Source: Spirochaetota bacterium
Lineage (GTDB): Bacteria; Spirochaetota; UBA4802; UBA5550
Assembly: GCA_035400945.1 (NCBI GenBank)
Contig: DAONAJ010000003.1
Coordinates: forward strand, 88,676 to 152,675
DNA length: 64,000 nucleotides
Direction of reading: 5' to 3'
This document shows positions 18,034 to 60,629 of this stretch, piece after piece; position 1 is the first letter of the stretch; every line of letters begins with the position of its first letter. The position numbers and the translations under genes are program-made. Below the pieces are notes generated by a model. It was given only the letters and a program-made list of their open reading frames with translations, was not told the DNA's origin and searched no databases.

Positions 18034-20973
18034 CTACGGCTTCCCTGCCGCCGGGCCGGCGCTGCCGGCAAAGGTGTCCCTGAACTTCTCGATCGTAATC
18101 CTGAACCGGCCTGAAAGCCTTCCCTCGCGGGCAGCGAGGCGGATGCCCAGGGCCATGTAGGCCGTGCGCATCGATATCTTGTAGGCGCGCGAAAGCCTGA
18201 TGGTCTCCGTCGTGGCCCACCGGAGTATGAATTTAAAGGCGTAATCGTACACCGTTTCGTCAACATGCCTCAGCTCGCCGTTCCAGGCGTCAGGGTGGAA
18301 CCTGCAGACCAGGTTGTGCACGATGGGATGGACGAACCCTTCCCGGTGCATGCGGCCGTAGCCGAAGACCTGGATCAGGCCGTTCAGCCATTCCAGATAC
18401 GAGGCCAGGACCCCGCCGGAATTGGCCAGGATATCGGGGAAGGAGATCCTTCCCATCTCGGTTAGGACGTCCTCCGCGTCGGCGGTCACCGGCCCGTTGG
18501 CGCCCTGGAGGACGTACTCCCCTTCCAGGACCCTCACGTTCACGGTCGTGCCGCGGCCGTCGCCGCGGTTGACGATGACGTCCTCGAGGGCGGAGGGGAC
18601 CACGACGTTCACGACCGCCGAAAGCGGCCGGATCGTGTCCGCCGGGATGAACTCGCCGCGGTCAAGGATTTCCCGGGGAGCGTCGGCGAGCCTGCATGTC
18701 CCGCTCCTGCAGAAGGCGTGAAGGCCGGCGATTCCCTCTATGCCCCGGTCGTTCGCCAGGGTGCCGCTGATGTCGGATATCATCTTTATCTTTCCCCCGA
18801 TGCCGTCGATGATCCCGGCAAAGGAGGCGCCCACCTTGCCGAAGCCCTGGACCGCGAAGGTGAGCATCCTGATGCGGCGGTGCGCCAGGCGGTAAAACTC
18901 TTCGTCGGAGGATAGTGCGTCGCCCACCCTGGCCGGATCGGCCCAGAGGGACGGGTCGCCGTAATCGCCGAAATTCTGCTGCGCCGCCAGTACCTCGACC
19001 AGGCCCCTGCCGGTGGCGCCGGTGCGGATCCGCAGCCCCCGCGCCCCGGGCTTCCCGGTTATGGAGGCGGCGGTATATCCTTCAAGCCTGTCGCGGTCGG
19101 AGGCGAGGGTTTTCACCAGCTCGCCGGAACCGGTGCTGATGCCGAAATTCTCTTTCAGGATGCGCGCCTCCGGGGAATCCGGGGCGAGGGAGCCGGCCAT
19201 GATGGCCTTCAGATCCCGGGAAGCGTTATCCGTTATGCGGTTGAACAGGATGCCGATCTCGTCCGCGCCGATGCCCACGTCCCCGGCGGGAACGTCGGAG
19301 AAGGGCCCCACGCCCGCCCGGTAATAAAGAAAATCGGCGTAGGCGTTGAGGACGTTTTCACGGGCCTCCTTCCCCTCCTCCGCCGGAAGGGAGCTGAAGC
19401 GCAGGTCTCCCAGGATGCCCCCCTTGCCGGCGGCGTAGAGGGGAATTCCCAGGCCGAGGGTCTTGAAGAGCATGTTGGTGGACAGGGCCCCCTCGCCGGA
19501 AAAGGAAACATGGTCCGCGTGGGCCCTGATCCCGCCCTTGCCGATCCCGATCCCGCTGATCCGGATAAAAAGGTACTGCCTGCCGGTCCGGGGCTCCCGG
19601 TAATCTTCATAATAAATGTCGCGGAAGGATATAAGGCGGATGATCTCCTCGTCCGTGAGGGAGCGCGCCGGGCGGTCCGCCTCGCGCTCCAGGGGCACCG
19701 TCGACGCAGTCACGATGTTCTTCAGGGTGGACCAGTAGTAATCGTTCTTCATCTCCGCCGTCGGGTTCAGGAGATAGTGCTTGATCAGGCCGAAGGTCTT
19801 TTCCCGTATGTCACGGTTCCCGTCGTTCAGCAGAAAGACCAGGGGTATCAGGTATTCCTTGCGCTTGTTCTTCTGCATCGCCTCGATCAGGTCAAGCTTC
19901 TCGTAATCCTTTGCGGTCCTGATGCGGTCCAGGAGCTCCCGTATCTCGCCCACCGAAACGGGGGCCGACTGGAGCAGCACCAGCCGGTTATAGAGCTCCC
20001 CTCTCAGGAAATCCTCAACCTCGGGCGAGAGCATCGCGGCCTCGACGCAGGTGGTGAGGGCAATGAAGGCGCGCCCGCCGATAAGGAACGTTTCGAAGTA
20101 CTGGCGGTTGATGGAAATGCCGCGGCGCTCGAAGATCCTGTTGATGGTGCTGAAGTTTTCCTGGAACTTCTCCAGGGGCAGCCAGACCCGGACCATCTTT
20201 TCGTCCGACCCGTCCTCCCGGTCGGGCATGACATCGATATACAGGTCTTCATCGTTGCGGATAAGGGAGCGGACCGACAGCCAGGGAAACAAATAGTTCT
20301 GGATATTGCGCTTTTTTGCATTATGGAGCGCCCTGGTCAAAAATCCGCTCCCGCAGGAGGCGATAAAGTCGCGGATGTCACCGGCGGCGACCGGCGGCGT
20401 TTGGCCGCGAAGCGCCTCCGCCATGAAGGCCGCGGCCCCATCACCTTTGCCGGCTTCGGCGGGCCGCGCCTCCTCCCTCTCGAGGATATAGAGCCTCCGG
20501 ATGTCCCTGTTCTCCGGGTGAAAGCGCACCAGGTACGAATAGAGGCGGAAGCGGCAGGGGCCGCCATCGCTCATGATGCGCTCAATGGCCGCCGTGGTCT
20601 TGCGGACAAGATCGGTCGTATCGGATATGAGGAAGAGGTGCTTGTCGGGAAAATCGCCGCGGACATCTATGTTCCGGTAACAGCCGTCGGCATCGCAGCG
20701 CTCCTTTTCCTGGTAACGGTTGTGCTCCAGGAGAAAAGAAACCTCCTCGATGCTGAGGGACAGCTCTTCCAGGTCACGGTAAAGATAGGGATAGTCCCAT
20801 GAATTGATTTTTGCGGCTATGCTCTCGAGCTCATGGATGATGGATTCGGGCGAAAGATCCGAATGGCTCACCAGGTGGTCATAGAGCCTCTTGACATCCT
20901 TGTCCGATATCAGCCGTGACTTGATCCGGTTCAATCTCTCAGCATAGGGATCCGCTCCGCTTTGTGCCAGCAT
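18034..20973 (-). CDS. Large Glu/Leu/Phe/Val-dehydrogenase superfamily protein (large NAD-GDH-like, about 110 kDa class)
   Basis: 979 aa; C-terminal half carries all GDH signatures (GIGKGGIR and AAGKGGILGD Lys motifs, DVPAGDVGIGADEIG, Rossmann VQGFGKVGASFAG, PDILANSGGVLASYLEW) with an internal insertion of about 35-40 aa; about 470 aa N-terminal region has no domain I recognise. Confidence 0.7.
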   Translation of the reverse strand: MLAQSGADPYAERLNRIKSRLISDKDVKRLYDHLVSHSDLSPESIIHELESIAAKINSWDYPYLYRDLEELSLSIEEVSFLLEHNRYQEKERCDADGCYRNIDVRGDFPDKHLFLISDTTDLVRKTTAAIERIMSDGGPCRFRLYSYLVRFHPENRDIRRLYILEREEARPAEAGKGDGAAAFMAEALRGQTPPVAAGDIRDFIASCGSGFLTRALHNAKKRNIQNYLFPWLSVRSLIRNDEDLYIDVMPDREDGSDEKMVRVWLPLEKFQENFSTINRIFERRGISINRQYFETFLIGGRAFIALTTCVEAAMLSPEVEDFLRGELYNRLVLLQSAPVSVGEIRELLDRIRTAKDYEKLDLIEAMQKNKRKEYLIPLVFLLNDGNRDIREKTFGLIKHYLLNPTAEMKNDYYWSTLKNIVTASTVPLEREADRPARSLTDEEIIRLISFRDIYYEDYREPRTGRQYLFIRISGIGIGKGGIRAHADHVSFSGEGALSTNMLFKTLGLGIPLYAAGKGGILGDLRFSSLPAEEGKEARENVLNAYADFLYYRAGVGPFSDVPAGDVGIGADEIGILFNRITDNASRDLKAIMAGSLAPDSPEARILKENFGISTGSGELVKTLASDRDRLEGYTAASITGKPGARGLRIRTGATGRGLVEVLAAQQNFGDYGDPSLWADPARVGDALSSDEEFYRLAHRRIRMLTFAVQGFGKVGASFAGIIDGIGGKIKMISDISGTLANDRGIEGIAGLHAFCRSGTCRLADAPREILDRGEFIPADTIRPLSAVVNVVVPSALEDVIVNRGDGRGTTVNVRVLEGEYVLQGANGPVTADAEDVLTEMGRISFPDILANSGGVLASYLEWLNGLIQVFGYGRMHREGFVHPIVHNLVCRFHPDAWNGELRHVDETVYDYAFKFILRWATTETIRLSRAYKISMRTAYMALGIRLAAREGRLSGRFRITIEKFRDTFAGSAGPAAGKP

Positions 20974-21015
20974 GATGACCGTTCCTCCTGACCGGGCGCA
21001 CGAACACGCGCTATG

Positions 21016-30093: not shown

Positions 30094-32262
30094 TTACAGC
30101 ACCTTGAAGGCATTGGTCACTCCCTCATAGGAGCTTATTTTACCGGTCCAGCCCGACTTCCAGTTCCCCTTGTGTCGGATCCGATACGTTCCCGGCTCCG
30201 CGTTTTTCGTGTGCCACGTTATGGTTATCTTCGAGTATGATATCCCGTCTCTCTGCCAGCGGTATGTTGTCTCCGGGTCCCAGTCGCGGGCCACGGGGAC
30301 GTAACTCCCGTTCACCAGCTTCTCGACGACCAGGAACGTGTCCTGCGTACGGAGATTGTTGTTGGGGTGGCCGCCCCAGAACTGCGCGCTTACCGTGTCG
30401 CCCCGGCTGTAGCTCGCGCCGGGCTGGGTTATGACATCGCCGAAATTCTTGAAGAGCGGCTTGTCGTCCAGCACCACCTTGGCGGTAAAATCCACGGTGA
30501 GCCCCGTCACGTCCTGGGGAGACGGGCCGGCGGGGACATCGCTGCCGTCAACGATGGCCCTGCAGAGCTTCGCGTATTCCTGGCGGAACGCAGCCAGTTC
30601 GTTGGGACCGAACTGCGTGCAGGCGCCCTCGTACCACTGCATCGCGTATTCCTCCCTGGTGGCAAGATAGGATGCATAGGAGTTGGCGAGGCTCGATACA
30701 ACCGCCATGTCCACGCCGAGTCCGGACAGGCCGGTCACCAGCGTGTCCTTGATGCGGCGTCCCGACATGGTGGTGACCTCGGCGGGAACGGCCGCTATGG
30801 CCAGGTTCCCTATCTTGAGCACCTGGAGCGGCATGACCTGCGGCGTCATGGTCGGCCCGTTGATATTGATATGGGCGATGCCGGTCGGGATGAGCACCGG
30901 TTTCTCGGCCTGGCATTTCTTGTATGCCGCGTCATTGGTGGCGGGCCACGCGAAGGCGAAGACGCCGCCGAGGAACGTGCTCAGGAACGTGCTGGCGGCA
31001 TTGTCGCTCCAGTTAAGGCTGGCAACGGTGGTCCCGTTCGGGAACAACGGCGACGGGCTCGGGTTGTCCGACGGGCTCCCGGCGGAGAAGGAAGCGCCCA
31101 TGCCGGCAGCGCACGTGGTGCATTTCGTCTCTTCCACGTACAGCGTCCGCATGTCCACCCATTCATGGCGGTAATCGATCGAGCCTGAAAGCTCCCTCGT
31201 TGCGCCGTTATACAGTTCTTTCGCCTTATTGTACTGCTTGAGGACCGCATTCTCAAGGCTTTTATTCTTTTCAAAGGTGACGTCAGCCGGGGCCTGGCCG
31301 AAGCCGATGTTGGGCGTCACGTCGCCAGCGCTGGCCTGGGCGAAGGCGGCGACGAAGGTCCTGGCGGCAAGGTAATCGGTTCCCTTGTCCTTTTCGAAAA
31401 GGTATGATGCCCACCCCTTGTTATCGCCGCTGATCAGTCTGTTTTCAGGCCCGATACTGTCGGGATGAACCGCGTACCAGTTCACCATGCCGATCTCCTC
31501 GCCGTCAAGGGTGACGAACTTCAGGAGGGTCATGGTTGTATCGGTAATGCTGCTGTACCGCGCCCGCTCCGCGGCGGGATTGTTGTTATAGGCGGTCTCG
31601 GCGCGGTTTCCGCCGCAGCCCTCGATGGCGCCCTGGGCCACGAGTATCCTCCCCCGCTTCAGGTTGTTATGGGCCCTGAGTATCGACTGGTAAATGCCGT
31701 CAACGATGGCGTTGAAGTTCTGCTTCACGAAGCCGTTGATGGTCACATCGTAGAGGAAATATCCCGAGTAACCCCCGGGGCCGTTGTGGGTGTGCGTGGC
31801 GGAAAGGAGAACGTTCTTCTCATTGTAATATTTCGCCAGATCCGCGTTCCCCGCGATTTTCTCGCAGACCTTGACTTTGACCATCTGGAAGAGCATCCCC
31901 AGGTCCGCGCTCACGAAAACGACCCGCTTGTCAGCGTCACCGATTATGTAGGCGCGCGAGCGGAGCCGCAGGTGAATGCCGGATGTCTTCTGCTCTGACA
32001 CGGCGTATCCCATCATGCCGATTTCAGCCGCTGGTCCGGTTATATCGTAGATCCCGGCGCCGATAAGGTACACGCTTCCGCCGGACCCGGTTGTTTCATT
32101 GGGTTGTATGGCGGTTCCGCCATTACTGTCTGTCTGGCCTGAATCCGATCCTAGAAGGGGAAAGGGATTGTTGTCTGAATCACTATCACAGCCTGGATAC
32201 ACCAGACATAGCATCGAAAAAAGAAAAACAGCCATGAAAAATTTTTTCTTACCATTGCCCAT
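30094..32262 (-). CDS. Neutral/alkaline ceramidase (lipoprotein)
   Basis: 722 aa; signal peptide with Cys lipobox; N-terminal block closely matches the neutral ceramidase signature (YLIGAGIYDITGPAAEIGMMGYA...GIHLRLRSRAYII...VVFVSADLGM...NVLLSATHTHNGPGGY). Confidence 0.8.
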   Translation of the reverse strand: MGNGKKKFFMAVFLFSMLCLVYPGCDSDSDNNPFPLLGSDSGQTDSNGGTAIQPNETTGSGGSVYLIGAGIYDITGPAAEIGMMGYAVSEQKTSGIHLRLRSRAYIIGDADKRVVFVSADLGMLFQMVKVKVCEKIAGNADLAKYYNEKNVLLSATHTHNGPGGYSGYFLYDVTINGFVKQNFNAIVDGIYQSILRAHNNLKRGRILVAQGAIEGCGGNRAETAYNNNPAAERARYSSITDTTMTLLKFVTLDGEEIGMVNWYAVHPDSIGPENRLISGDNKGWASYLFEKDKGTDYLAARTFVAAFAQASAGDVTPNIGFGQAPADVTFEKNKSLENAVLKQYNKAKELYNGATRELSGSIDYRHEWVDMRTLYVEETKCTTCAAGMGASFSAGSPSDNPSPSPLFPNGTTVASLNWSDNAASTFLSTFLGGVFAFAWPATNDAAYKKCQAEKPVLIPTGIAHININGPTMTPQVMPLQVLKIGNLAIAAVPAEVTTMSGRRIKDTLVTGLSGLGVDMAVVSSLANSYASYLATREEYAMQWYEGACTQFGPNELAAFRQEYAKLCRAIVDGSDVPAGPSPQDVTGLTVDFTAKVVLDDKPLFKNFGDVITQPGASYSRGDTVSAQFWGGHPNNNLRTQDTFLVVEKLVNGSYVPVARDWDPETTYRWQRDGISYSKITITWHTKNAEPGTYRIRHKGNWKSGWTGKISSYEGVTNAFKVL

Positions 32263-32439
32263 TCCGGACCCCCTTCAGGTATTACTATGATACCAGGTTT
32301 TTTAAATTATATTAAAAAAATAAACCAAACAGCCGGTTTGATATTTAATTTATATTATATTATCATTAAAAAGTCATATCAAAATCTGACCGATCAGTAT
32401 TTGAATAGTAGTCAAATCGAATGCGGGGTCAGAGTAAAT

Positions 32440-49240: not shown

Positions 49241-50620
49241 ATGAAGATCACGGTCCTCAACGGAAGCCCCAAGGGGGACACGAGCGTCACCATGCAGTAT
49301 ATCCGGTATACGCAAAAACAGCACCCGGACCACACGTACTACATCCATGACATTTCCCGGGGGATAAAGGTCATCGAAAAGGATCCGAAGGCCTTCCGCG
49401 CCGTCCTGGAGGATGTCAGGGCATCAGAGCTCGTCATCTGGGCATTCCCCCTCTACTACTTCCTTGTCCCGTCGCAGTACAAACGATTCATAGAGCTGGT
49501 GTTCGAGGGGAAAGCTGCCCCGGCCTTCAGATCAAAATTCGCAGCGGTCATCACGACCTCCATCCATTTCTTCGACCACACGGCGCACAACTACATGCGC
49601 GCCATCTGCGATGACCTTGCTATGAAATTCGCCGGTTCCTACTCCGCCTCCATGTACGACCTGGTGAGGAGCCGTGAGCGGAAGCGCTTTGACGCCTTCA
49701 CAACATGCATGTTCGACGCCGTGCGGGACAACACGCCTGCGGCGCGGGCCTATTACCCAGTCAGCGCCAGGATGTCGCCGTACCGGCCCTCCCCGCCGAA
49801 AATCAGGATCAATCCCGCCGGGAAAAACATCGTCATCATCACCGACGCAGCCTCCCCCTCATCCAACCTTGGGAAGATGGCCGAGCGCCTCAGCCGGTCC
49901 TTTACCGAGGCGCCGCCGGTATACAACCTCCACGACCTCAAGATCAAGGGGGGATGCCTGGGGTGCCTCCAGTGCGCCTACGACAACCGGTGCGTGTACG
50001 GGGACAGCGACGACTTTCACCTCTTCTTTGAAAGCAGGATCAAGGCGGCGGACATCATCTTTTACTGCATGGAGACGCGGGACCGGTACCTTTCGTCCCT
50101 GTGGAAGCGGTTCATCGACAGGAGCTTCTACAACAATCACACCCCCGTCCTCGAAGGAAAGCAGATAGGGTGCCTCGTGTCGGGCCCGCTGGGGAAACTT
50201 TCGTCCTTCAATGAATTTCTCCGCTGCTTTCCGGAATTCCAGCATGCAAACCTTGTTGATATCGTCACAGACGAAGGCGGGAACTCGAAGGTTCTGGACC
50301 TGCAGATCCAGAACCTGGCCTCCAACGCCGTTGCCCGGGCCGAGAAGAATTACATAGGACCCCAGACCTTCCAGAGCGTCGGCGGCTGGAAGATTTTCAG
50401 GGACGAGATCTGGAGCTGGCTGCGTTTTCCCTTCCTGGCCGACCACCGCTACTACAAGAAGCACGGCATGTACGACTTCCCGAAGCGGCGCTTCACGCAG
50501 AGCCTGGTCAACGGGGCCCTTTCGCAGATGGTCAGGTTCCCCGGCTTCAGGGAGGTCGTGTACAAGCAGCGCATGAAGGATGAGATGCTGCGGCCCTTCA
50601 AGACCATCCTGAAGCAGTAG
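49241..50620 (+). CDS. Tandem flavodoxin-like-fold protein (NAD(P)H-dependent FMN reductase-like) with Isf-type Cys cluster motif
   Basis: 460 aa from MKITVLNGSPKGDTS (RBS GGGAGG); second flavodoxin-like repeat (KNIVIITDAASPSS...) carries C-x2-C-x2-C-x5-C (CLGCLQCAYDNRC), the iron-sulfur flavoprotein 4Fe-4S pattern. Confidence 0.65.
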   Translation: MKITVLNGSPKGDTSVTMQYIRYTQKQHPDHTYYIHDISRGIKVIEKDPKAFRAVLEDVRASELVIWAFPLYYFLVPSQYKRFIELVFEGKAAPAFRSKFAAVITTSIHFFDHTAHNYMRAICDDLAMKFAGSYSASMYDLVRSRERKRFDAFTTCMFDAVRDNTPAARAYYPVSARMSPYRPSPPKIRINPAGKNIVIITDAASPSSNLGKMAERLSRSFTEAPPVYNLHDLKIKGGCLGCLQCAYDNRCVYGDSDDFHLFFESRIKAADIIFYCMETRDRYLSSLWKRFIDRSFYNNHTPVLEGKQIGCLVSGPLGKLSSFNEFLRCFPEFQHANLVDIVTDEGGNSKVLDLQIQNLASNAVARAEKNYIGPQTFQSVGGWKIFRDEIWSWLRFPFLADHRYYKKHGMYDFPKRRFTQSLVNGALSQMVRFPGFREVVYKQRMKDEMLRPFKTILKQ

Positions 50621-50670
50621 GCAATAAGTAGCACTGCATCCAAAACCGCAATCGGGCATTTACCCCAGTA

Positions 50671-50698
50671 AAAACAGGCCCGGTCCTTTCCTGTTTTA
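50671..50698 (+). terminator. Weak terminator-like hairpin after the flavodoxin-like gene
   Basis: aaacagg-cccggtcctttc-cctgtttt. Confidence 0.4.
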
Positions 50699-50782
50699 GG
50701 ATTTTATCTTGACAATTTAGCTGAACACTGTTAAATTAACATTGTTCATATTATTAATGACAATTATTCAGGAAGGACGGCA

Positions 50783-51415
50783 ATGCCCAAAACCAGCAGA
50801 AGCGCCGAAGAAGTGGCGCAGGTCCGGGAGCATATTCTTAGCGCGGCCATCGGGATCATAGCCGACAAGGGATTCAGCCGCCTGAGCATGCGCAGCCTGG
50901 CGTCGGCCATCGGCATGACCGCCGCCAACATCTATAATTATTACAGCAGCAAGGACGAGCTGTACCTTGACATCCAGACCGCCGGATTCCAGGAACTCTA
51001 CGCCCGCTTTGCCGGTGCGCGGGACCGTGAAAAAACGCCGCTGAAAAAAATCGCGGCGATCATGAAGGAATATATATCATACGGAACATCCAACCCGGAC
51101 AGCTACAATATCATCTTCAGCATGGATACGCCCAAGTACGCCGATTACCGCGACACGCAGATCGAGCCGGTTGCCTACGCTGAAAAGAAAGCGGGGCTGG
51201 ACCTCATAGAGATAACCCGCCCCGTCGTGGCGGAGCTTCTGAAAAAGCGCGGGAAGCCAGCCGCCGGGGCATGGAAAAAAACCGTGCAGGCGTGGATCAT
51301 GCTCCATGGCATCGTAAGCCTCATGAACAGCCGCGTCCTCCAGGAGGTGGCGGATGACAGCTCCCGATTCATAGACGAAAGCGTGAAAGACGTTGTCAAT
51401 TACCTGCTCTCATAA
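50783..51415 (+). CDS. TetR/AcrR family transcriptional regulator
   Basis: 210 aa; N-terminal TetR HTH (ILSAAIGIIADKGFSRLSMRSLASAIGMTAANIYNYYSSKDELY); 26 bp upstream of the GRE gene. Confidence 0.85.
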   Translation: MPKTSRSAEEVAQVREHILSAAIGIIADKGFSRLSMRSLASAIGMTAANIYNYYSSKDELYLDIQTAGFQELYARFAGARDREKTPLKKIAAIMKEYISYGTSNPDSYNIIFSMDTPKYADYRDTQIEPVAYAEKKAGLDLIEITRPVVAELLKKRGKPAAGAWKKTVQAWIMLHGIVSLMNSRVLQEVADDSSRFIDESVKDVVNYLLS

Positions 51416-51441
51416 AACCTGACGCTACCGGGAGACCGCCC

Positions 51442-54399
51442 ATGAACATCATAACCTACATTCTCCTCCGCCTCATGGCCCTGCTCTTCAACCTGCGGCC
51501 CTCGCTGCGGAACTACCTCGCCGGCGCGGACGGCTTCATCAACTTCGTCGTGGGGTTCGCCACGGAAGACGGCAGCGTCAACCGCGCCATTTCCTTCCGC
51601 GACGGAAAGGTCAGGGCGCTGCGCCGCATACCCGCCGATGCGGACGTGACCCTGCGGTTCCGGAGCGGCAGGACCCTCATGGAGATGCTCAGGATTACCC
51701 CCAACGAAATGCTCATCCTTATCCTGAACAACAAGATGATCCTCGAGGGAAACATCGCCTATCTCCAGCTCTTCAACTTTTACATATCGCTGCTCCTGTG
51801 GAAAACCCACCGGCGAATGCTGGACAGAAAACAGAAGAAGGACATCAGGGAGCGGAAGCGGCAGTACGGCTCCGATAGGGCCGCTCCCGGCGACGATCTT
51901 CCCGCCCGCCGCAGGGGAATGCTCCGCGCCCCCTCGGTCGACCGGAACGTGAAGCATCTCGCGGACCCCTACCTGGCCGATTACAGTCTCGACGATTTCC
52001 CGCGCCTGCGGTGGATGCTGGACCGCCATTTCGACCGCATGCCGCAGCTCTGCGTGGAGCGGCCGAAGCTCCTCACCGACTGGTACCGGGCCAACGGCTT
52101 CGAGACCGACGCATCCGGAAAGCCCTGGGTGCCGGTACTGCGGCAGGCACTGGCCTTCAAGCATCTCATGGAACACAAAAAGCCGATAATCGCCGAGAGG
52201 GAGCTGATCGCGGGCACCAGCACCGCGAAGGAGCCCACCGGCGTCATCATATATCCCGACGCCCAGGGCACCATGCTCTGGGGCGAACTCAGGTCGATCG
52301 GCGACCGCGTTCTCAATCCCTACACGATCAGTCCGGAAGACGCCGACATCCTCCACCACGAGATCTTCCCCTTCTGGGCAACGCGGAACTTCAGGGAGTA
52401 TGTGCGCACGAAATACAACCATCCCCTCTGCCTCAAGATCGACGAGCGCTGGGTCTACTACTTCGTATGGAAATCGGTGGGCGTGTCCCATACCGTGCCG
52501 GACTACCCGGCGCTGCTGTCCCGGGGAACCCGGGGCCTGGCCTCCGATATCGATGCCGCCCTTTCGAGACTCGGCGATACAGACGCCGATCGCCGCGCCA
52601 ATCTCGAGGCGATGAAACTGTGCCTGGAAGCCCTCGATATCTACGGGAGGAACCTTTCCCTTGAAGCGGCGCGCCTCGCAGCGGCGGAACCGGACCCGTC
52701 CCGCCGCGCCGAACTGGAGAGGATCGCGCAGATCTGCGGCCGGGTGCCGCGGGAACCGGCCCGCACCCTCGACGAGGCGGTGAACGCGGTCTGGATCGCG
52801 TGGGTGGCCCTCCACATGGAAAACACCAACACGGGCCTCTCCCTGGGCCGCCTGGACCAGTGGCTCCAGCCCTATTTCGCCGCGGACATGGAGGCCATCG
52901 CCGACGACGCCGGCCGCGACGCGTACCTGAAACGCGCCATCGAGCTCGTCGGCTGCCTCTACATGCGCGGCACCGACCACCTTCCCCTCGTGCCCGACAT
53001 CGGCAACTACCTCTTCGGCGGGAGCTCGTCGGACCAGGCGATAACCCTCGGCGGGGTAACCCCGGACGGTAGCGACGGCGTGTGCGACATGACCTACATC
53101 ATGCTCAAGGTCACCGAGATGCTCTCCATCAGGGACCCCAACGTGAATGCCCGCTTCAACCCGGACCGGAACAGCGAGGCCTACCTGGATCGCCTCTGCG
53201 AGGTCAACTACGTGACCGCGGCAACGCCGTCGATGCACAACGACCGCTCCGTGTCCGCGTCCCTGGAGGACAAGGGCTACGACCCCCGTCACGTGCGCGA
53301 CTGGTCTGCCACCGGCTGCGTCGAGCCGACCCTGTCCGGCCGCCACATGGGTCACACGGGCTCGATACTGATGAACATGGTTTCGGCCCTCGAGATGGCC
53401 CTCAACAACGGGAACCACCCCCACGTGAACTGGCAGCTTGGACCCCGGACCGGATCCGTCGAGGGCGGTGACTTCGTCTCCTTCGAGGACTTCTTCAACG
53501 CCTGGGCGGCGCAGCAGCGTTTTCTCATCGACCAGGCGGTGGAGCTCAATAACCTCTATGCCGAGGCCCATGCCCGGTACCGTCCGTCGCCCCTCCTGAG
53601 CGCCCTCATCGACGGGTGCATAGCAAACGGCCTGGACGTGACCGCCGGCGGCGCCCGCTACAACAGCTCCGGGAGCTCTAATATCGGCCTGGCGGACGTG
53701 ACCGATTCCCTCATGGCGGTCAAGACACTGGTCTTCGACGAAAAGAAGGTCTCCTTCGCGGACCTCAAAAAAGCCATCGATACCGATTTCCGCGACGCTC
53801 CGGCCCTGCGCGCCCTGGTGCAGCGGAAGGTTCCCCTCTTCGGGTCCGGAGACCAGGCCGCCCTTGACATGGCCCGGCGGGTGGCCCGGGTCGTCCATGA
53901 CGCCTACGCGGCCCACCGCAACTACCGGGGCGGGCCCTACACCTCGGGCTTCTGGTCCATGTCGCAGCACGTGGCCTACGGCACCCTCTCGGGCACGCTC
54001 CCGTCGGGGCGCCTCTCGGGCAAGGCCTTCACCCCGGGGCTCACGCCGCAGCCCTCCGCGTCGCCGAGCTTCCTCGACAACATACGCGACGTGGCGCGCC
54101 TCGACCCGGCCTGCATGGACAACAACATCGCCTTCAACGTGAAGCTGGTCCCCGCGGCCGGCGAAAGCCGCGGGGACATCGTGAAAGCCATGAGGAATTA
54201 CGTGAAGACCTATTTCGACCTGGGCGGCATGCAGATGCAGTTCAACGTGGTGAACTCCGCCACGCTGAAAGACGCCATGGCCAACCCCGAAAAATACCGC
54301 AACCTGCTGGTGCGGATATCGGGCTACAACGCCTATTTCGTGACGCTGAATCGCGAGATGCAGATAGAGCTGATAGAGCGGGCGGAATACGGCATGTGA
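51442..54399 (+). CDS. Glycyl radical enzyme (PFL2/glycerol-dehydratase-like clade) with N-terminal SCP2-like domain
   Basis: 985 aa; C-terminal glycyl radical motif RISGYNAYFV; active-site Cys loop SATGCVEPTLSG with Glu (eliminase-type); residues about 20-120 resemble the SCP2 sterol-carrier fold (DVTLRFRSGRTLMEMLRITPNEMLILILNNKMILEGNIAYLQLFNF). Confidence 0.85.
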   Translation: MNIITYILLRLMALLFNLRPSLRNYLAGADGFINFVVGFATEDGSVNRAISFRDGKVRALRRIPADADVTLRFRSGRTLMEMLRITPNEMLILILNNKMILEGNIAYLQLFNFYISLLLWKTHRRMLDRKQKKDIRERKRQYGSDRAAPGDDLPARRRGMLRAPSVDRNVKHLADPYLADYSLDDFPRLRWMLDRHFDRMPQLCVERPKLLTDWYRANGFETDASGKPWVPVLRQALAFKHLMEHKKPIIAERELIAGTSTAKEPTGVIIYPDAQGTMLWGELRSIGDRVLNPYTISPEDADILHHEIFPFWATRNFREYVRTKYNHPLCLKIDERWVYYFVWKSVGVSHTVPDYPALLSRGTRGLASDIDAALSRLGDTDADRRANLEAMKLCLEALDIYGRNLSLEAARLAAAEPDPSRRAELERIAQICGRVPREPARTLDEAVNAVWIAWVALHMENTNTGLSLGRLDQWLQPYFAADMEAIADDAGRDAYLKRAIELVGCLYMRGTDHLPLVPDIGNYLFGGSSSDQAITLGGVTPDGSDGVCDMTYIMLKVTEMLSIRDPNVNARFNPDRNSEAYLDRLCEVNYVTAATPSMHNDRSVSASLEDKGYDPRHVRDWSATGCVEPTLSGRHMGHTGSILMNMVSALEMALNNGNHPHVNWQLGPRTGSVEGGDFVSFEDFFNAWAAQQRFLIDQAVELNNLYAEAHARYRPSPLLSALIDGCIANGLDVTAGGARYNSSGSSNIGLADVTDSLMAVKTLVFDEKKVSFADLKKAIDTDFRDAPALRALVQRKVPLFGSGDQAALDMARRVARVVHDAYAAHRNYRGGPYTSGFWSMSQHVAYGTLSGTLPSGRLSGKAFTPGLTPQPSASPSFLDNIRDVARLDPACMDNNIAFNVKLVPAAGESRGDIVKAMRNYVKTYFDLGGMQMQFNVVNSATLKDAMANPEKYRNLLVRISGYNAYFVTLNREMQIELIERAEYGM

Positions 54400-54538
54400 C
54401 TCATGCCGTGGGGCAAAACAAAGGATCAAGTATTGCCGGCAATTGTACGATAATACGGTATGCATGCCGCCGACGGCGGCACCGGGAATTGATCATTACG
54501 TTTTCCAGGCAGATTGACACTATTCCGGAGAAACCGCG

Positions 54539-54682
54539 ATGAATGAAAAAGCATACATCCAGTCCATAGTGCTGGCCGTGCGCAACGACCTTTCAAAGGG
54601 CATGAAGAAAGACGAGGTTCTGAAGAACCTTTCCCGCGTCATCAGCAGTGACCTCTTCAGCAAGGTAAAAGCCCAGCTGTAG
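54539..54682 (+). CDS. Possible small ORF (47 aa) downstream of the GRE
   Basis: ATG with GGAGA RBS 7 nt upstream; amphipathic helical sequence; no homology recognisable. Confidence 0.25.
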   Translation: MNEKAYIQSIVLAVRNDLSKGMKKDEVLKNLSRVISSDLFSKVKAQL

Positions 54683-54949
54683 CATCAGCAAGTTACCAAC
54701 ACACGCATCTGTCCGGAATACCCTCCCGCTCACCGGAAAACCCGCCACACCTTCGCGCAGCGCCATCCGCCAGCGCACCGGACCGGGTTTTTCAGGAAAC
54801 TGTTAGACTTTTTACATAACCCGTTATACTATTGAATTAATCCCCGGGCTCCATGCGGCGGCCGGGGATTGCATTGATAACGCCGCATTTCCCGGCAGGC
54901 TTTTTATATCCTGCAATAATCCGAACAAACCATTACAAGGAGAAATGCC

Positions 54950-55834
54950 ATGGGTGAATTCTTCAGCGGATACTGGCTGCTTATTACAATTTTAACGATC
55001 GTGTTCCTGGCGATCTTCTTTTCAGGGATACGGATAGTCCGCCCGACACACCGCGGCCTGATCGAACGCCTCGGCAAATACACCCGCTTTGCCCAGCCGG
55101 GCTTTCACTGGATCATCCCCGTCATCGAGCGGATGTTCCGGGTCAACGTCACGGAACAGATGGTCGACGCCAAGCCCCAGGAAATCATAACCAACGACAA
55201 CCTGAACGCCCGGGTGGACGCCCAGGTCTACTTCAAGGTGAAGGCCGACGAGGAGAGCGTCAAGAATTCCCAGTACAACGTCAACAACTACGAACTGCAG
55301 ATAGTGAATCTGGCGCGGACCACCCTGCGGAACATCATCGGCACCATGACGCTGAAATCGGCGAACAGCGAGCGGAGCAAGATCAACTCCGACCTGCTGC
55401 TGACCCTCTGCAAGGAAACGGAAAAATGGGGGCTGGAGGTCGTCAGGACCGAACTGAAGGAGATCGACCCGCCCAAGGACGTACAGGAGACGATGAACAA
55501 GGTGGTGAAGGCGGAGAACGAGAAGATCGCCGCCATCGATTTCGCCACCGCGACCGAGACCGCCGCCGACGGCCAGAAGCGCGCCGACATCAAGAAGGCG
55601 GAAGGGGTGCGGCAGGCGCGGATACTGGCGGCCGACGGCGAGGCCCAGGCGATCAAGCTGGTGAACGAGGCGGCCAACCAGTATTTCATTGGAAACGCGC
55701 AGCTGCTGCGGAGGATCCAGATGCTCGAAGAGGCCCTGAAAAACAACGCGAAGATCGTGGTCCCCGCCGGGACCGACCTGGTCAACGTCCTGGGCGAAAT
55801 GGCGGGCATCGTGCCGCTGAAGCGCGGGAACTAG
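54950..55834 (+). CDS. SPFH/band-7 (stomatin/prohibitin-like) membrane protein
   Basis: 294 aa; N-terminal TM anchor, SPFH core, Ala/Glu-rich coiled-coil C-terminus. Confidence 0.85.
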   Translation: MGEFFSGYWLLITILTIVFLAIFFSGIRIVRPTHRGLIERLGKYTRFAQPGFHWIIPVIERMFRVNVTEQMVDAKPQEIITNDNLNARVDAQVYFKVKADEESVKNSQYNVNNYELQIVNLARTTLRNIIGTMTLKSANSERSKINSDLLLTLCKETEKWGLEVVRTELKEIDPPKDVQETMNKVVKAENEKIAAIDFATATETAADGQKRADIKKAEGVRQARILAADGEAQAIKLVNEAANQYFIGNAQLLRRIQMLEEALKNNAKIVVPAGTDLVNVLGEMAGIVPLKRGN

Positions 55835-55942
55835 CGGGAAGAACCCCGCCAGTTCCCTGCCGCGTAAAAACCGGGACGATTTAACCGGCCATCACCGCGC
55901 AGGTCCGCCATCGTCCGCGCTGAAGAACCGGTCTCCGCGCCG

Positions 55943-56499
55943 TCAGAAGGCGTAGAGGCGCTGGCCCGCTATGACCATGACGCCCTGCCTGAAATCAATG
56001 TTCTTGCCCCTGCCGGCGACACCGCACCCGCCCATTTCCACGAAGAAGGTCCAGTGCTTCATCACGTAGATTTCTATGGCGCCGAAAAAACGCGAGGCGA
56101 AGAAGGGGCCGCGCCTGCGGGTTACATCGTACACGATGCCTCCCGTGACGCCGACATAGAGCCTGCTCTGCAGGTAGATGGGGGTCTTCCACAGGAGCCC
56201 CACGGACGGCATGACCGCAGTGCTCCAGTGCCGCGAGGTCGTAAGGCCCGTCATGGATTGGCGGAAGTAGTACTGGTTGGTAATGACCGGCGCGTCTATG
56301 CGGACGGCAAAGCCCTTGTCCAGGAAGACATGGAAATCAAGGCCATACATCGGGTCCTCATTGTAGAGGCCCACCGGGATACCGATGCCAAATCGCTGGT
56401 TATAGCGCGGCTCCTCCCCCGGCTTGATCGGCTGGGCCGCCGCAAATGAAACGGCCGCCATGACGAGTAACAAAGTCGGCACACATGCCCGAAAAACCA
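55943..56499 (-). CDS. Hypothetical outer-membrane/secreted protein
   Basis: Start at MVFRACVPTLLLVMAAVSFAAAQP (signal peptide); alternating beta-like pattern, C-terminal aromatic (…QRLYAF). Confidence 0.5.
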
Positions 56500-56597
56500 T
56501 GCTGTCACCTCCACTTTGATGTTTAATGCACCACCCGGTTTCACACCGCAACAATCTCACCGGTGAAATAGTTTCCCCGTCCGGAAACGATTTGCCT

Positions 56598-59152: not shown

Positions 59153-59851
59153 TTACTTCGCCGGCTTCGGCTCCTGCACCTGGGCAAACACGGCCCTGGC
59201 ATATTTCTCCCGCTTGATCAGCTCCCGGAGACGCATGAGAGTGTTATAGGGCAGGTCTACAGAGGCCATGTTGGCGATGCCCGGCGGGACCGATCCTCCC
59301 GGCTCGTTATGCATCTGGTACACCACCATGACATCTCCCGATCCGGCCGGGATAAAGGACCAGGCGCCGGTCATCTTCGGAATCCGCACCGTCTTGGGGA
59401 TCGGGGGGATATAATCGGGCTTCCCGGTAAGGGTTATCGTAATCGCCAGGGTCTTCGGGTCCTGCCTGCAGATGGAATATGACACGAGGTCGCGGTTCCA
59501 TACCGGCCAGGGCGCGTGGGTGACGATGTGATGAATCCGCTCATGGAAATTGAACTGTTTCAGGAGCTTCGCGTCAATGCACTCGTACATCCAGGCAGTA
59601 TAGGACGACGTGTCATCAAAGGCGGCCATCAGGCTGGAGAGCCGGGTCTTCTCGAGGTACATGGTCCCCTTGAACTCCTGCAGCTTGGATCCGGGCACGT
59701 CCCTGACGTAGACCTCGATGCCGTTGCCCTTCTTTTTCAGCTTCCATTCGCTCTGGGCTGAAGCATCAACAATAATTGATCCGGCCGCGATGAGCAGCGC
59801 AGCAGCACAGGCAATTTTTTTAATCATGGCAGTCGCCTCTCCATAAGTCAT
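59153..59851 (-). CDS. Secreted START/SRPBCC-type lipid-binding domain protein
   Basis: 232 aa; signal peptide; WKLKKKGNGIEVYVRDVPGS...FKG...HAPWPVWNRDLVSYS pattern typical of START domains. Confidence 0.6.
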   Translation of the reverse strand: MTYGEATAMIKKIACAAALLIAAGSIIVDASAQSEWKLKKKGNGIEVYVRDVPGSKLQEFKGTMYLEKTRLSSLMAAFDDTSSYTAWMYECIDAKLLKQFNFHERIHHIVTHAPWPVWNRDLVSYSICRQDPKTLAITITLTGKPDYIPPIPKTVRIPKMTGAWSFIPAGSGDVMVVYQMHNEPGGSVPPGIANMASVDLPYNTLMRLRELIKREKYARAVFAQVQEPKPAK

Positions 59852-59951: not shown

Positions 59952-60629
59952 CTAGTTGACCATGGGCTCCGATATCACCGGATACATTGCCGCCGCGTAC
60001 CGGTCCTCCCTGACCACGTTCCTGAATTTCTGCATGGTGAGGAACGGCAGGTCCACCACGGACAGGTTCAGCAGGGACAGCGGGAGCGGCCCGCCCGGAT
60101 CGGTGACCGTCTGGTACACGACCATGACGTCGCCGGTTTTCAGCGGCCTGAAGGTCCAGGAGGCCTTCATCATCGGGATACGCAGCCGGCCCTTCTGCGG
60201 CGGTATGTAGTCCGGTTTGCCGGTGATTGCGATGGTCACGGACAGGTCGTCCGGATTCTGGGTCATGAGGGAATACACGATCACGTCCCGGTCGCTGGCG
60301 GGCCAGGGCGCGTGGGTGACGGTGTAGGTGATGCGCTCCTGCACGTTCATGTACTTCAGCAGTTTTGATTCGGTGCAGTTGTGCATCCACCGGGGATAGG
60401 AGGCGGTATCGTCGAAAGTGGCGACCATGCTCGACAACCGCACGCCCTTGACATACATGACCCCCCTGAACTCCTTCAATCCGGATCCGGGGTAGTCCCG
60501 CAGGAAGGCGTAGATCCCGTCCTGCCTTTTCTTCAGCTTCCAGCCGTCATCCGCCGCTGCGGCATTATCAGCCTGCTGGAACACCGCGATTAAAATGAGT
60601 GCAGTAATGACTTTCAGTATTCTCTTCAT
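59952..60629 (-). CDS. Secreted START/SRPBCC-type lipid-binding domain protein (paralog)
   Basis: 225 aa; signal peptide; roughly half identical to the 59153 gene (WKLKKRQDGIYAFLRDYPGSGLKEFRG...HAPWPASDRDVIVYS). Confidence 0.6.
   Translation of the reverse strand: MKRILKVITALILIAVFQQADNAAAADDGWKLKKRQDGIYAFLRDYPGSGLKEFRGVMYVKGVRLSSMVATFDDTASYPRWMHNCTESKLLKYMNVQERITYTVTHAPWPASDRDVIVYSLMTQNPDDLSVTIAITGKPDYIPPQKGRLRIPMMKASWTFRPLKTGDVMVVYQTVTDPGGPLPLSLLNLSVVDLPFLTMQKFRNVVREDRYAAAMYPVISEPMVN

What the first reader, a model, noticed from the sequence alone, without database searches (positions are those of the whole stretch)
49241..54700. GRE locus lacks an adjacent radical-SAM activase; neighbours are TetR and a tandem-flavodoxin Fe-S protein
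GRE genes are almost always paired with a cognate radical-SAM activating enzyme (CxxxCxxC). No ORF within about 5 kb on either side shows that motif. The neighbours are a TetR regulator, a 460-aa tandem flavodoxin-like protein with an Isf-type C-x2-C-x2-C-x5-C cluster (a possible electron donor), a 47-aa ORF and an SPFH protein. Either the activase is encoded elsewhere, or the flavodoxin/Fe-S protein participates in radical installation or electron supply.
Basis: inference. Interest (0 to 1): 0.55.

Follow-up and report, generated by a model that had tools for sequence, protein, structure and literature searches.

The report
Orphan glycyl radical enzyme, activase elsewhere
This glycyl radical enzyme gene really has no activating enzyme nearby, but the same genome encodes a standard activase beside a sister copy of the enzyme on another contig, and the neighbouring flavodoxin-like gene is only a chance neighbour, so the arrangement is ordinary.

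Summary
A 985-aa glycyl radical enzyme (GRE, 51442-54399) follows a TetR gene and a 459-aa two-domain flavodoxin-like protein with a C-x2-C-x2-C-x5-C motif. No radical-SAM activase lies anywhere in the 64-kb window or in the 9.8 kb beyond its end.

The MAG that carries this window (GCA_964415215.1) has a canonical GRE activase on another contig (TIGR02494, 282 bits against a cutoff of 174; CPLSCSWC). It sits beside a 61%-identical 985-aa paralogue whose glycine loop is identical. A congener's single 4.8-Mb contig has the same split, about 378 kb apart.

The family is large (at least 580 loci in species-representative genomes). 49 of 81 loci have an adjacent activase. Of 24 loci with full flanks, 10 have none.

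The flavodoxin idea is not supported. That gene is next to the GRE in only 1 of 81 related loci. In relatives it holds the same syntenic position without any GRE. A promoter plus a conserved TetR-operator palindrome separates it from TetR-GRE.

The most likely mechanism is activation in trans, as E. coli PflA activates TdcE. The side finding of more interest is that the GRE belongs to an uncharacterised family with an N-terminal SCP2 lipid-binding domain.

The parts
49241..50620 (+). Two-domain flavodoxin-like / Isf-like protein (459 aa). It is a resident backbone gene and not part of the GRE module.
   Evidence: Pfam FMN_red (two stretches) and Flavodoxin_2. CLGCLQCAYDNRC motif in domain 2. 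Widespread family of about 460 aa. Found in the same syntenic position without a GRE in L186 and L189. Next to the GRE in only 1 of 81 homologous loci.
50709..50737 (+). Sigma-70-like promoter (TTGACA, 17 nt, TAAATT, with TG before the second hexamer) upstream of TetR.
   Evidence: 10 of 12 matches. This is a consensus match only. The region as a whole has no more such sites than shuffled sequence.
50722..50748 (.). Palindrome TGAACACTGTTAA-A-TTAACATTGTTCA, a putative TetR operator overlapping the -10 region.
   Evidence: Related palindromes (AACnnnGTTAA-N-TTAACnnnGTT) lie upstream of the TetR gene in L011, L016, L018, L028, L046, L048, L050, L066, L074 and L091, across several phyla.
50783..51415 (+). 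TetR-family regulator (210 aa), 26 bp upstream of the GRE. It is the conserved partner of this GRE family.
   Evidence: Pfam TetR_N + TetR_C_33. A homologous TetR gene is present in 39 of 82 loci, in most of them directly upstream of the GRE with gaps of about -3 to +40 bp.
51442..54399 (+). Glycyl radical enzyme, 985 aa, of the PFL2/dehydratase clade. It has no adjacent activase.
   Evidence: Pfam PFL-like aa 199-847 and Gly_radical aa 864-967. NCBIfam PFL2-3 scores 509.6 bits, below the cutoff of 678.2, and no equivalog matches. Invariant family residues are kept. dN/dS against the congener is 0.13.
51442..51801 (+). N-terminal SCP2-fold domain of the GRE (aa 1 to about 120), followed by a basic helical linker (aa 121-198, 51802-52035).
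   Evidence: Pfam SCP2 matches weakly in 15 of 20 family members (best E 3.4e-4; window E 0.055, below cutoff). AlphaFold2 model with mean pLDDT 76. The Foldseek top 45 PDB hits are all SCP2-fold proteins, led by UbiJ-SCP2 6h6n at E 1.8e-5.
53317..53325 (+). Codons for Cys626-Val-Glu628 of the invariant TGCVEPT loop (thiyl-radical Cys and the general-base Glu of eliminase-type GREs).
   Evidence: Invariant in 28 family members. Aligned with C433/E435 of glycerol dehydratase 1r8w.
54313..54327 (+). Glycine loop R958-I-S-G961-Y962, the radical site.
   Evidence: Invariant in the family. The C-terminal 28 residues are identical in the paralogue that has the activase.
54539..54682 (+). 47-aa ORF downstream of the GRE with no Cys. 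Conserved in the congener.
   Evidence: No family hit. Not found at any other homologous locus.
54950..55834 (+). SPFH/Band_7 (HflK-like) membrane protein. It lies in the 6-kb block that is absent in relative L186.
   Evidence: Pfam Band_7 at E 5.6e-41. Found next to the GRE only in the congener L011.
55943..56500 (-). 185-aa hypothetical protein, the last gene of the block lying between the flavodoxin gene and the hybrid histidine kinase.
   Evidence: Gene calls. No Pfam hit. The block is absent in L186, where the flavodoxin gene abuts the kinase gene.

Best explanation
TetR-GRE is a self-contained, TetR-controlled module with its own promoter and operator. It encodes a functional glycyl radical enzyme with an N-terminal SCP2 domain, one of two paralogues in this spirochaete genome.

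The glycyl radical on Gly961 is installed in trans by the canonical radical-SAM activase encoded at the paralogue's locus on another contig. That locus reads ABM, Fe-ADH, GRE2, PlsC-like acyltransferase, activase. This is the same way E. coli PflA also activates TdcE.

The flavodoxin-like gene is a resident of the chromosomal backbone. It is adjacent only because the TetR-GRE block sits next to it. At most it is one of the cell's general low-potential reductants.

Shown: the activase is absent here; an activase and a paralogue are present in the same MAG and in the congener's single contig; the flavodoxin gene is not conserved next to the GRE. Inferred: that this particular activase activates this GRE.
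For: - No activase in 64 kb plus a further 9.8 kb.
- Window GRE and activase share a MAG. The window is 99.8% identical to GCA_964415215.1 contig CAYPZB010000037.1. Activase P0252 lies on contig CAYPZB010000025.1 of the same MAG, and in the same JGI metagenome as the window's 262-kb contig (Ga0116249_10000029 against _10000032).
- The activase contig has GC 57.5% against 56.4% for the window, and a tetranucleotide correlation of 0.977.
- NCBI accessions pair up in two further MAGs: GRE HNW26912/HPV40053 with activase HNW29862/HPV40605.
- The activase is canonical: CPLSCSWC, two C-x2-C-x2-C-x3-C motifs, Radical_SAM + Fer4_12, and TIGR02494 at 282 bits against a cutoff of 174.
- The paralogue next to it is 985 aa and 61% identical. 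Its C-terminal 28 residues are identical (VRISGYNAYFVTLNREMQIELIERAEYG).
- In the congener's 4.8-Mb contig, the GRE lies at about 654.5 kb and activase P0126 at about 276 kb.
- The family normally uses such an activase. 49 of 81 loci have one within 1.3 kb.
- Five genomes have one activase-linked and one orphan paralogue. L013, L014 and L016 have GRE-GRE-activase tandems.
- Cross-activation between GREs with conserved glycine loops is documented, for example PFL-AE with TdcE (PMC13450708 section 2.5).
- The GRE is under purifying selection, with dN/dS 0.13, and keeps every invariant residue.
- Evidence on the flavodoxin gene.
Against: - The link between the two contigs rests on metagenomic binning. 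It is supported by the congener's single contig and by composition, but the window's own genome is not closed.
- There are no expression or biochemical data. [quoted passage not shown]
- The two paralogues are only 61% identical overall.
- I could not scan the whole genome, so a further dedicated activase may exist.
- In the congener, the GRE next to the activase is split into three ORFs. So the activase is retained there without an obviously intact neighbour. That fits trans use but is also unexplained.
- A general role of the flavodoxin-like protein as reductant of the activase cannot be excluded by sequence.
Confidence: 0.75

Rival explanations
1. The two-domain flavodoxin/Fe-S protein is a dedicated partner of this GRE. 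It either supplies electrons specifically to the activase or replaces it in radical installation.
For: It is adjacent and on the same strand. It is conserved together with the GRE in the 86%-identical congener. It has an Isf-type Cys motif and flavodoxin folds. E. coli PFL-AE is reduced by flavodoxin in vivo (PMC13450708).
Against: - It is absent from the other 80 homologous GRE loci.
- The orthologous gene sits in the same backbone position (pseudouridine synthase ... flavodoxin ... histidine kinase / Iso_dh) with no GRE in L186 and L189.
- The family is far more widespread than the GRE, with 4321 hits.
- A 162-bp gap holding a promoter-like site and a conserved TetR operator separates it from TetR-GRE.
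- It has no radical-SAM motif, and no flavodoxin-fold protein is known to install a glycyl radical.
Confidence: 0.05
2. The GRE is activated by a different, dedicated activase encoded somewhere else in the genome, not by the one next to the paralogue.
For: Activases are usually specific for their GRE. I could not scan the whole genome. The activase search listed only the best 120 of 7089 hits.
Against: Only one hit in that list lies on the congener's 4.8-Mb contig. The glycine loop and the following C-terminus are identical between the paralogues. Five other genomes also show the pattern of one activase-linked and one orphan copy.
Confidence: 0.15
3. The orphan GRE is a decaying or non-catalytic copy that is never activated.
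For: It has no activase nearby. In the congener, the other GRE copy is fragmented, which shows that copies of this family can decay.
Against: dN/dS is 0.13 against the congener. The protein is 100% identical on 22 contigs from many samples. All 200-odd invariant family residues are kept, including G961, C626, E628 and H350. Orphan copies persist in at least 10 fully flanked loci from several phyla.
Confidence: 0.03

Closest known systems
E. coli TdcE (2-ketobutyrate formate-lyase) activated by PflA encoded at the pflB-pflA locus
   Same: A GRE paralogue with no adjacent activase is activated in trans by the activase of a sister GRE whose glycine loop is conserved (PMC13450708 section 2.5). Here the glycine loop and C-terminal 28 residues are identical between the paralogues.
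   Different: Trans-activation here is inferred, not shown. The paralogues belong to the PFL2/dehydratase clade rather than the formate-lyases. The activase is the roughly 310-aa type with two extra ferredoxin-like clusters.
PFL2 / B12-independent glycerol dehydratase family of GREs (TIGR01774; PDB 2f3o, 1r8w, HypD 6vxc, CutC)
   Same: These are the best sequence matches (E 1e-116 to 1e-106). The Cys-x-Glu loop (GCVEP) and the residue aligned with His164 of glycerol dehydratase are conserved.
   Different: The score is below the TIGR01774 cutoff (509.6 against 678.2), and no equivalog model passes. The position aligned with Asp447 of glycerol dehydratase is Gly, and His281/Ser282 align with Thr/Gly. 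There is an extra 198-aa N-terminal SCP2 domain plus linker. The substrate is unknown.
Iron-sulfur flavoprotein Isf / NAD(P)H-dependent FMN reductase (WrbA-like) family
   Same: Flavodoxin-like fold (Pfam FMN_red, Flavodoxin_2) and the compact C-x2-C-x2-C-x5-C motif. By my recollection of Methanosarcina Isf, this motif ligates a [4Fe-4S] cluster.
   Different: It is a tandem of two such domains (459 aa), with the Cys motif only in the second. There is no PDB sequence relative at E <= 0.01, and no NCBIfam model matches with a meaningful score. No link to GREs is evident.
SCP2 lipid-binding domains (UbiJ-SCP2, C-terminal domain of alkylsulfatases SdsA1/Pisa1, sterol carrier protein 2)
   Same: The predicted fold of GRE residues 1 to about 120 matches these (Foldseek E 1.8e-5 to 1e-3, TM normalised to target 0.5-0.68).
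   Different: The sequence match is below Pfam's threshold. I found no paper on fusion of SCP2 to a GRE in the held library. Ligand binding is untested.

Membership tests
Glycyl radical enzyme (PFL-like superfamily) | PFL-like barrel domain plus a C-terminal glycine-radical domain with an RVxG[FWY]-type loop | tested here: met
   Pfam PFL-like 554 bits and Gly_radical 82.8 bits, both above cutoff. The loop is VRISGYNAYF and is invariant in the family.
Glycyl radical enzyme (PFL-like superfamily) | Catalytic Cys on the Cys loop | tested here: met
   C626 in TGCVEPT is invariant and aligns with C433 of glycerol dehydratase.
Glycyl radical enzyme (PFL-like superfamily) | A radical-SAM activase available in the genome | tested here: met
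   None in the window. One is present on another contig of the same MAG and in the congener's single contig. Same-genome assignment rests on binning plus synteny with the congener.
Glycyl radical enzyme (PFL-like superfamily) | Glycyl radical actually formed on Gly961 | not testable with these tools
   Needs EPR or detection of the oxygen-cleavage product.
PFL2 / glycerol dehydratase subfamily (NCBIfam TIGR01774) and its characterised equivalogs (HypD, CutC, HpsG, PFL) | Score above the curated cutoff of the subfamily or equivalog model | tested here: not met
   TIGR01774 509.6 against 678.2. HypD 425 against 1100. HpsG 392 against 1000. CutC 374 against 1050.
PFL2 / glycerol dehydratase subfamily (eliminase-type GREs) | Cys-x-Glu general-base motif and glycerol-dehydratase substrate ligands (H164, S282, D447) | tested here: inconclusive
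   C626/E628 and H350 (aligned with H164) are conserved. S282 aligns with Gly465 and D447 with Gly640. The residue numbering of 1r8w is from my own counting of the alignment.
GRE activating enzyme (TIGR02494; PF04055 + PF13353), as a gene within the finding's locus | An ORF with N-terminal C-x3-C-x2-C and a radical-SAM domain next to the GRE | tested here: not met
   No such ORF in 64 kb plus 9.8 kb.
Isf-type iron-sulfur flavoprotein | Flavodoxin-like FMN-binding fold plus a compact four-Cys motif C-x2-C-x2-C-x4-7-C | tested here: met
   FMN_red 63.7 bits against a cutoff of 24, in two stretches. CLGCLQCAYDNRC in the sequence. Cofactor binding itself is not testable here.
SCP2 domain (PF02036) | Pfam score above the gathering threshold | tested here: not met
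   Window 14.2 bits against a cutoff of 21.3. 15 of 20 family members give weak hits, best E 3.4e-4.
SCP2 domain (PF02036) | SCP2 alpha/beta fold | tested here: met
   AlphaFold2 model with pLDDT 76. The Foldseek top 45 PDB hits are all SCP2-fold proteins at probability 0.84-1.0.
TetR-family regulator with its own operator | N-terminal TetR HTH domain and a palindromic operator at its own promoter | tested here: met
   TetR_N 47 bits and TetR_C_33 41.7 bits. A 13-nt-arm palindrome overlaps the promoter-like site, and related palindromes occur at 10 other loci. Binding itself is not tested.

The most novel reading that the evidence does not exclude
The GRE belongs to a large, uncharacterised family found in at least 580 loci of species-representative genomes. 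These span Desulfobacterota (including Smithella and Desulfosudis oleivorans), Spirochaetota, Actinomycetota, Chloroflexota and Bacillota.

In this family an SCP2 lipid-binding domain is fused to an eliminase-type GRE core. The gene is controlled by a conserved TetR/operator pair. Recurring neighbours are acyl-CoA ligases, SDR and 3-beta-HSD-like reductases, a Fe-ADH and a PlsC-like acyltransferase.

The family would catalyse a new radical reaction on a hydrophobic substrate, for example dehydration or cleavage of a long-chain diol or glycerolipid. The SCP2 domain would deliver the substrate. Many genomes would keep two specialised paralogues served by one activase.
Probability: 0.35. Interest if true: 0.7.

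Novelty: new member of a known kind. Interest (0 to 1): 0.25.

Why it matters
For the finding as posed, the result is a clean negative. The missing activase needs no new radical-installation route, and the flavodoxin-like neighbour should not be annotated as a GRE partner. In this family, absence of an adjacent activase is common (10 of 24 fully flanked loci). It goes with a second, activase-linked paralogue, so genome-mining pipelines that require GRE-activase adjacency will miss about 40% of its members.

The useful by-product is a delineated SCP2-fused GRE family. It is widespread in anaerobic digesters, sediments and hydrocarbon- or fatty-acid-degrading lineages. It has a conserved TetR operator and lipid-metabolism neighbours, and no published function that I could find. 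That makes it a tractable target for discovering new GRE chemistry.

Tried and rejected
- **Metagenome scan for the activase.** I scanned metagenome contigs with the congener's activase P0126. The best identity was 58% and no contig of the window's organism was returned.
- **Three activase look-ups.** P0130 (87% identical to the congener's activase), P0133 and P0134 all came from other samples or MAGs, not the window's genome. L175 did show the same activase-TPR-SpoIIE-AF_1327-DUF218 synteny in another spirochaete.
- **Route that worked.** I listed the members of the 90%-identity clusters, then looked up member P0252.
- **Literature.** I searched 'glycyl radical enzyme' with SCP2, 'sterol carrier protein' and 'ether lipid', and read a limonene-GRE paper and an alkane review. 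None describes this family.
- **GRE small subunit.** I considered that the 47-aa ORF might be one, like BSS beta/gamma or HPAD gamma. It has no Cys and occurs only in the congener, so I rejected this.
- **Non-canonical activase hidden in an unannotated ORF.** I found no support. There is no C-x3-C-x2-C in any long ORF in any frame.
- **PDB sequence search with the flavodoxin-like protein.** No hit.
Full report
**Observation**

- A 459-aa protein at 49241-50620 (+) has two flavodoxin-like halves. Pfam FMN_red matches in two stretches (E 1.8e-17) and Flavodoxin_2 at E 7.5e-13. Its second half carries CLGCLQCAYDNRC, a C-x2-C-x2-C-x5-C motif.
- A TetR regulator lies at 50783-51415 (+), with TetR_N and TetR_C_33.
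- A 985-aa glycyl radical enzyme (GRE) lies at 51442-54399 (+). PFL-like covers aa 199-847 (E 7e-166) and Gly_radical covers aa 864-967 (E 3e-23).
- A 47-aa ORF lies at 54539-54682, and an SPFH/Band_7 protein at 54950-55834.

No activase is present.
- A six-frame scan of the whole 64-kb window finds C-x3-C-x2-C only three times, all in stop-free stretches of 31-80 codons that are not among the genes I called.
- Pfam scans of about 50 window proteins give no Radical_SAM hit.
- The window is 100% identical to a 262-kb metagenome contig. The called genes in the next 9.8 kb of that contig also carry no radical-SAM family.

**What the GRE is**

It scores below the curated cutoff of the PFL2/glycerol-dehydratase subfamily (TIGR01774, 509.6 against 678.2 bits). 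It scores far below every characterised equivalog: HypD, HpsG, CutC and PFL. Its nearest solved relatives are A. fulgidus PFL2, glycerol dehydratase, HypD and CutC. It keeps the Cys-x-Glu loop (TGCVEPT) and the residue aligned with His164 of glycerol dehydratase. The positions aligned with Ser282 and Asp447 are Gly. This points to eliminase-type chemistry on a substrate other than glycerol.

The first ~120 of the 198 N-terminal residues, which no library assigns above threshold, are predicted to form an SCP2 fold.
- Weak Pfam SCP2 hits occur in 15 of 20 family members.
- An AlphaFold2 model has mean pLDDT 76.
- The 45 best Foldseek PDB matches are all SCP2-fold proteins, led by UbiJ-SCP2 at E 1.8e-5.

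The family is large and well conserved. More than 500 proteins match at 59-92% identity over the full length. At least 580 loci occur in species-representative genomes of Desulfobacterota, Spirochaetota, Actinomycetota, Chloroflexota, Bacillota and others. I found no paper on it.

**Where the activase is**

I called ORFs in 81 homologous loci with up to 10 kb of flank and compared them by BLAST and clustering.
- A ~305-aa PflA-like protein with C-x3-C-x2-C near residue 30 lies within 1.3 kb of the GRE in 49 of 81 loci, usually overlapping or within 60 bp. So the family uses a standard activase.
- Of the 24 loci with at least 8 kb on both sides, 10 have none.
- Five genomes carry two loci each, one with the activase and one without.
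- L013, L014 and L016 carry GRE-GRE-activase tandems in which the first or second GRE is the 68%-identical relative of the window's enzyme.

An alignment of spirochaete activases then retrieved P0126. It lies on the same 4.8-Mb contig as the congener's GRE (86% identical, same flavodoxin-TetR-GRE-small ORF-SPFH order) but about 378 kb away.

Cluster membership showed that the window's exact GRE carries NCBI accessions HNW26912/HPV40053. Activases HNW29862/HPV40605 belong to one cluster. Looking up that activase (P0252) placed it on contig CAYPZB010000025.1 of GCA_964415215.1, the MAG whose contig CAYPZB010000037.1 is 99.8% identical to the window. It is also in the same JGI metagenome as the window's contig. 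Composition agrees: GC is 57.5% against 56.4%, and the tetranucleotide correlation is 0.977.

The activase is canonical. It has CPLSCSWC and two ferredoxin-type motifs, Radical_SAM plus Fer4_12, and TIGR02494 at 282 bits against a cutoff of 174.

It sits in the order ABM, Fe-ADH, GRE, PlsC-like acyltransferase, activase. That GRE is a 985-aa paralogue, 61% identical to the window's enzyme over its whole length including the SCP2 domain. Its last 28 residues are identical (VRISGYNAYFVTLNREMQIELIERAEYG).

**How it most likely works**

A recent review records that cross-activation is known between GREs with conserved glycine loops. The classic case is E. coli PFL-AE activating TdcE, which has no activase of its own (PMC13450708 section 2.5). 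The simplest reading is the same arrangement here: one activase serving two paralogues.

The orphan copy is not decaying. dN/dS against the congener is 0.13. All family-invariant residues are present. The protein is identical on 22 contigs from many samples.

What is shown is that an activase exists in the same MAG and in the congener's single contig. That it acts on this GRE is inference.

**The flavodoxin-like gene**

Four lines of evidence argue against a specific link to the GRE.
- From the GRE side, the gene is adjacent only in the congener and in none of the other 80 loci.
- From its own side, it belongs to a family with 4321 hits that keeps the same ~460-aa architecture in many phyla.
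- In a related spirochaete (71% identical protein), the backbone RRM protein, pseudouridine synthase, two hypothetical proteins, flavodoxin-like gene, hybrid histidine kinase, 135-aa protein and START protein matches the window's. There the flavodoxin gene abuts the kinase gene, and TetR, GRE, the 47-aa ORF, SPFH and the 185-aa gene are missing. A more distant relative has pseudouridine synthase, flavodoxin-like gene and Iso_dh, again without a GRE.
- The 162-bp gap between the flavodoxin gene and TetR holds a promoter-like site (TTGACA, 17 nt, TAAATT) overlapped by the palindrome TGAACACTGTTAA-A-TTAACATTGTTCA. Related palindromes precede the TetR gene at ten other loci from several phyla. So TetR-GRE looks like its own regulated unit.

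A non-specific role of the protein as one of the cell's reductants cannot be excluded from sequence.

**Comparison with what is known, and novelty**

The arrangement works like TdcE/PflA. The enzyme is a GRE by every testable criterion, but it fails the curated cutoffs of all characterised subfamilies and carries an SCP2 fusion.

As an answer to the finding, this is a new member of a known kind, and the missing activase is ordinary. I score interest at 0.25.

The most novel reading not excluded is that the SCP2-GRE family performs a new radical reaction on a lipid-like substrate. Support comes from the SCP2 fold, a TetR regulator whose TetR_C_33 C-terminal domain is the family's usual ligand-binding part, and recurrent neighbours: acyl-CoA ligases, SDR and 3-beta-HSD-like reductases, Fe-ADH and a PlsC-like acyltransferase. 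I give this about 0.35 probability.

**Limits**

- Same-genome assignment of the two contigs rests on binning, composition and the congener's closed-looking contig.
- The whole genome could not be scanned, so a second activase is possible.
- My ORF-based locus analysis can miss short or divergent genes.
- Only the best 80 of at least 580 loci were examined.
- There are no expression or biochemical data.

Noticed in passing
window 51442-52035 (GRE aa 1-198): The GRE has a conserved N-terminal SCP2-fold domain plus a basic helical linker. The whole family (at least 580 loci in species-representative genomes across at least 6 phyla) shares it, and I found no publication on it.
   Followed up: partly
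window 50722-50748; also upstream of TetR in L011, L016, L018, L028, L046, L048, L050, L066, L074, L091: An operator-like palindrome of the form AACnnnGTTAA-N-TTAACnnnGTT is conserved upstream of the TetR gene that precedes this GRE family, across Spirochaetota, Desulfobacterota and Phycisphaerae.
   Followed up: partly
L177/L178 4362-10945 (other contig of the same MAG): The paralogue locus reads ABM monooxygenase-like, Fe-ADH, SCP2-GRE (985 aa), PlsC-like acyltransferase (PF01553), activase. An alcohol dehydrogenase and an acyltransferase next to a GRE hint at an aldehyde-forming reaction on a lipid.
   Followed up: partly
L093 3251-6225 (congener, 4.8-Mb contig): In the congener, the GRE near the activase is called as three ORFs (644 + 92 + 69 aa; PFL-like, PFL-like, Gly_radical). 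It is either a pseudogene or frameshift errors in a long-read assembly. The activase is intact.
   Followed up: no
L013 1865-8421; L014 20-6561; L016 6300-13874; L041 3908-9899: Two SCP2-GRE paralogues occur in tandem, followed by one activase in L013, L014 and L016 (TetR-GRE-GRE-activase in L016). In L041 the tandem has no activase within 10 kb downstream.
   Followed up: partly
L069, L071, L076, L078, L083, L087, L090, L091 (Smithella and relatives), downstream of GRE-activase: A recurrent operon reads TetR, GRE, activase, NAD-dependent epimerase/3-beta-HSD-like protein, short-chain dehydrogenase. AMP-binding acyl-CoA ligases are nearby in 12 loci.
   Followed up: partly
window 50621-56597 compared with L186 7383-7392: The roughly 6-kb block TetR, GRE, 47-aa ORF, SPFH, 185-aa gene is present in the window and absent in a related spirochaete, where the flavodoxin-like gene and the histidine-kinase gene are 9 bp apart. 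This is an insertion or a deletion. No repeats or mobile-element genes were looked for at the junctions.
   Followed up: no
window 54539-54682: A 47-aa Cys-free ORF after the GRE is conserved in the congener (about 85% identical) but matches no family and occurs at no other GRE locus.
   Followed up: partly
window 30094-32274 (-), 59153-59851 (-) and 59952-60629 (-): A full-length neutral/alkaline ceramidase (Pfam E 6e-153) and two adjacent START-domain lipid-binding proteins are encoded in this spirochaete genome. These are lipid-related genes not obviously tied to the GRE.
   Followed up: no
window 18034-21015 (-): A 993-aa protein has Glu/Leu/Phe/Val dehydrogenase domains only in its C-terminal half. 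This looks like a large-type glutamate dehydrogenase.
   Followed up: no
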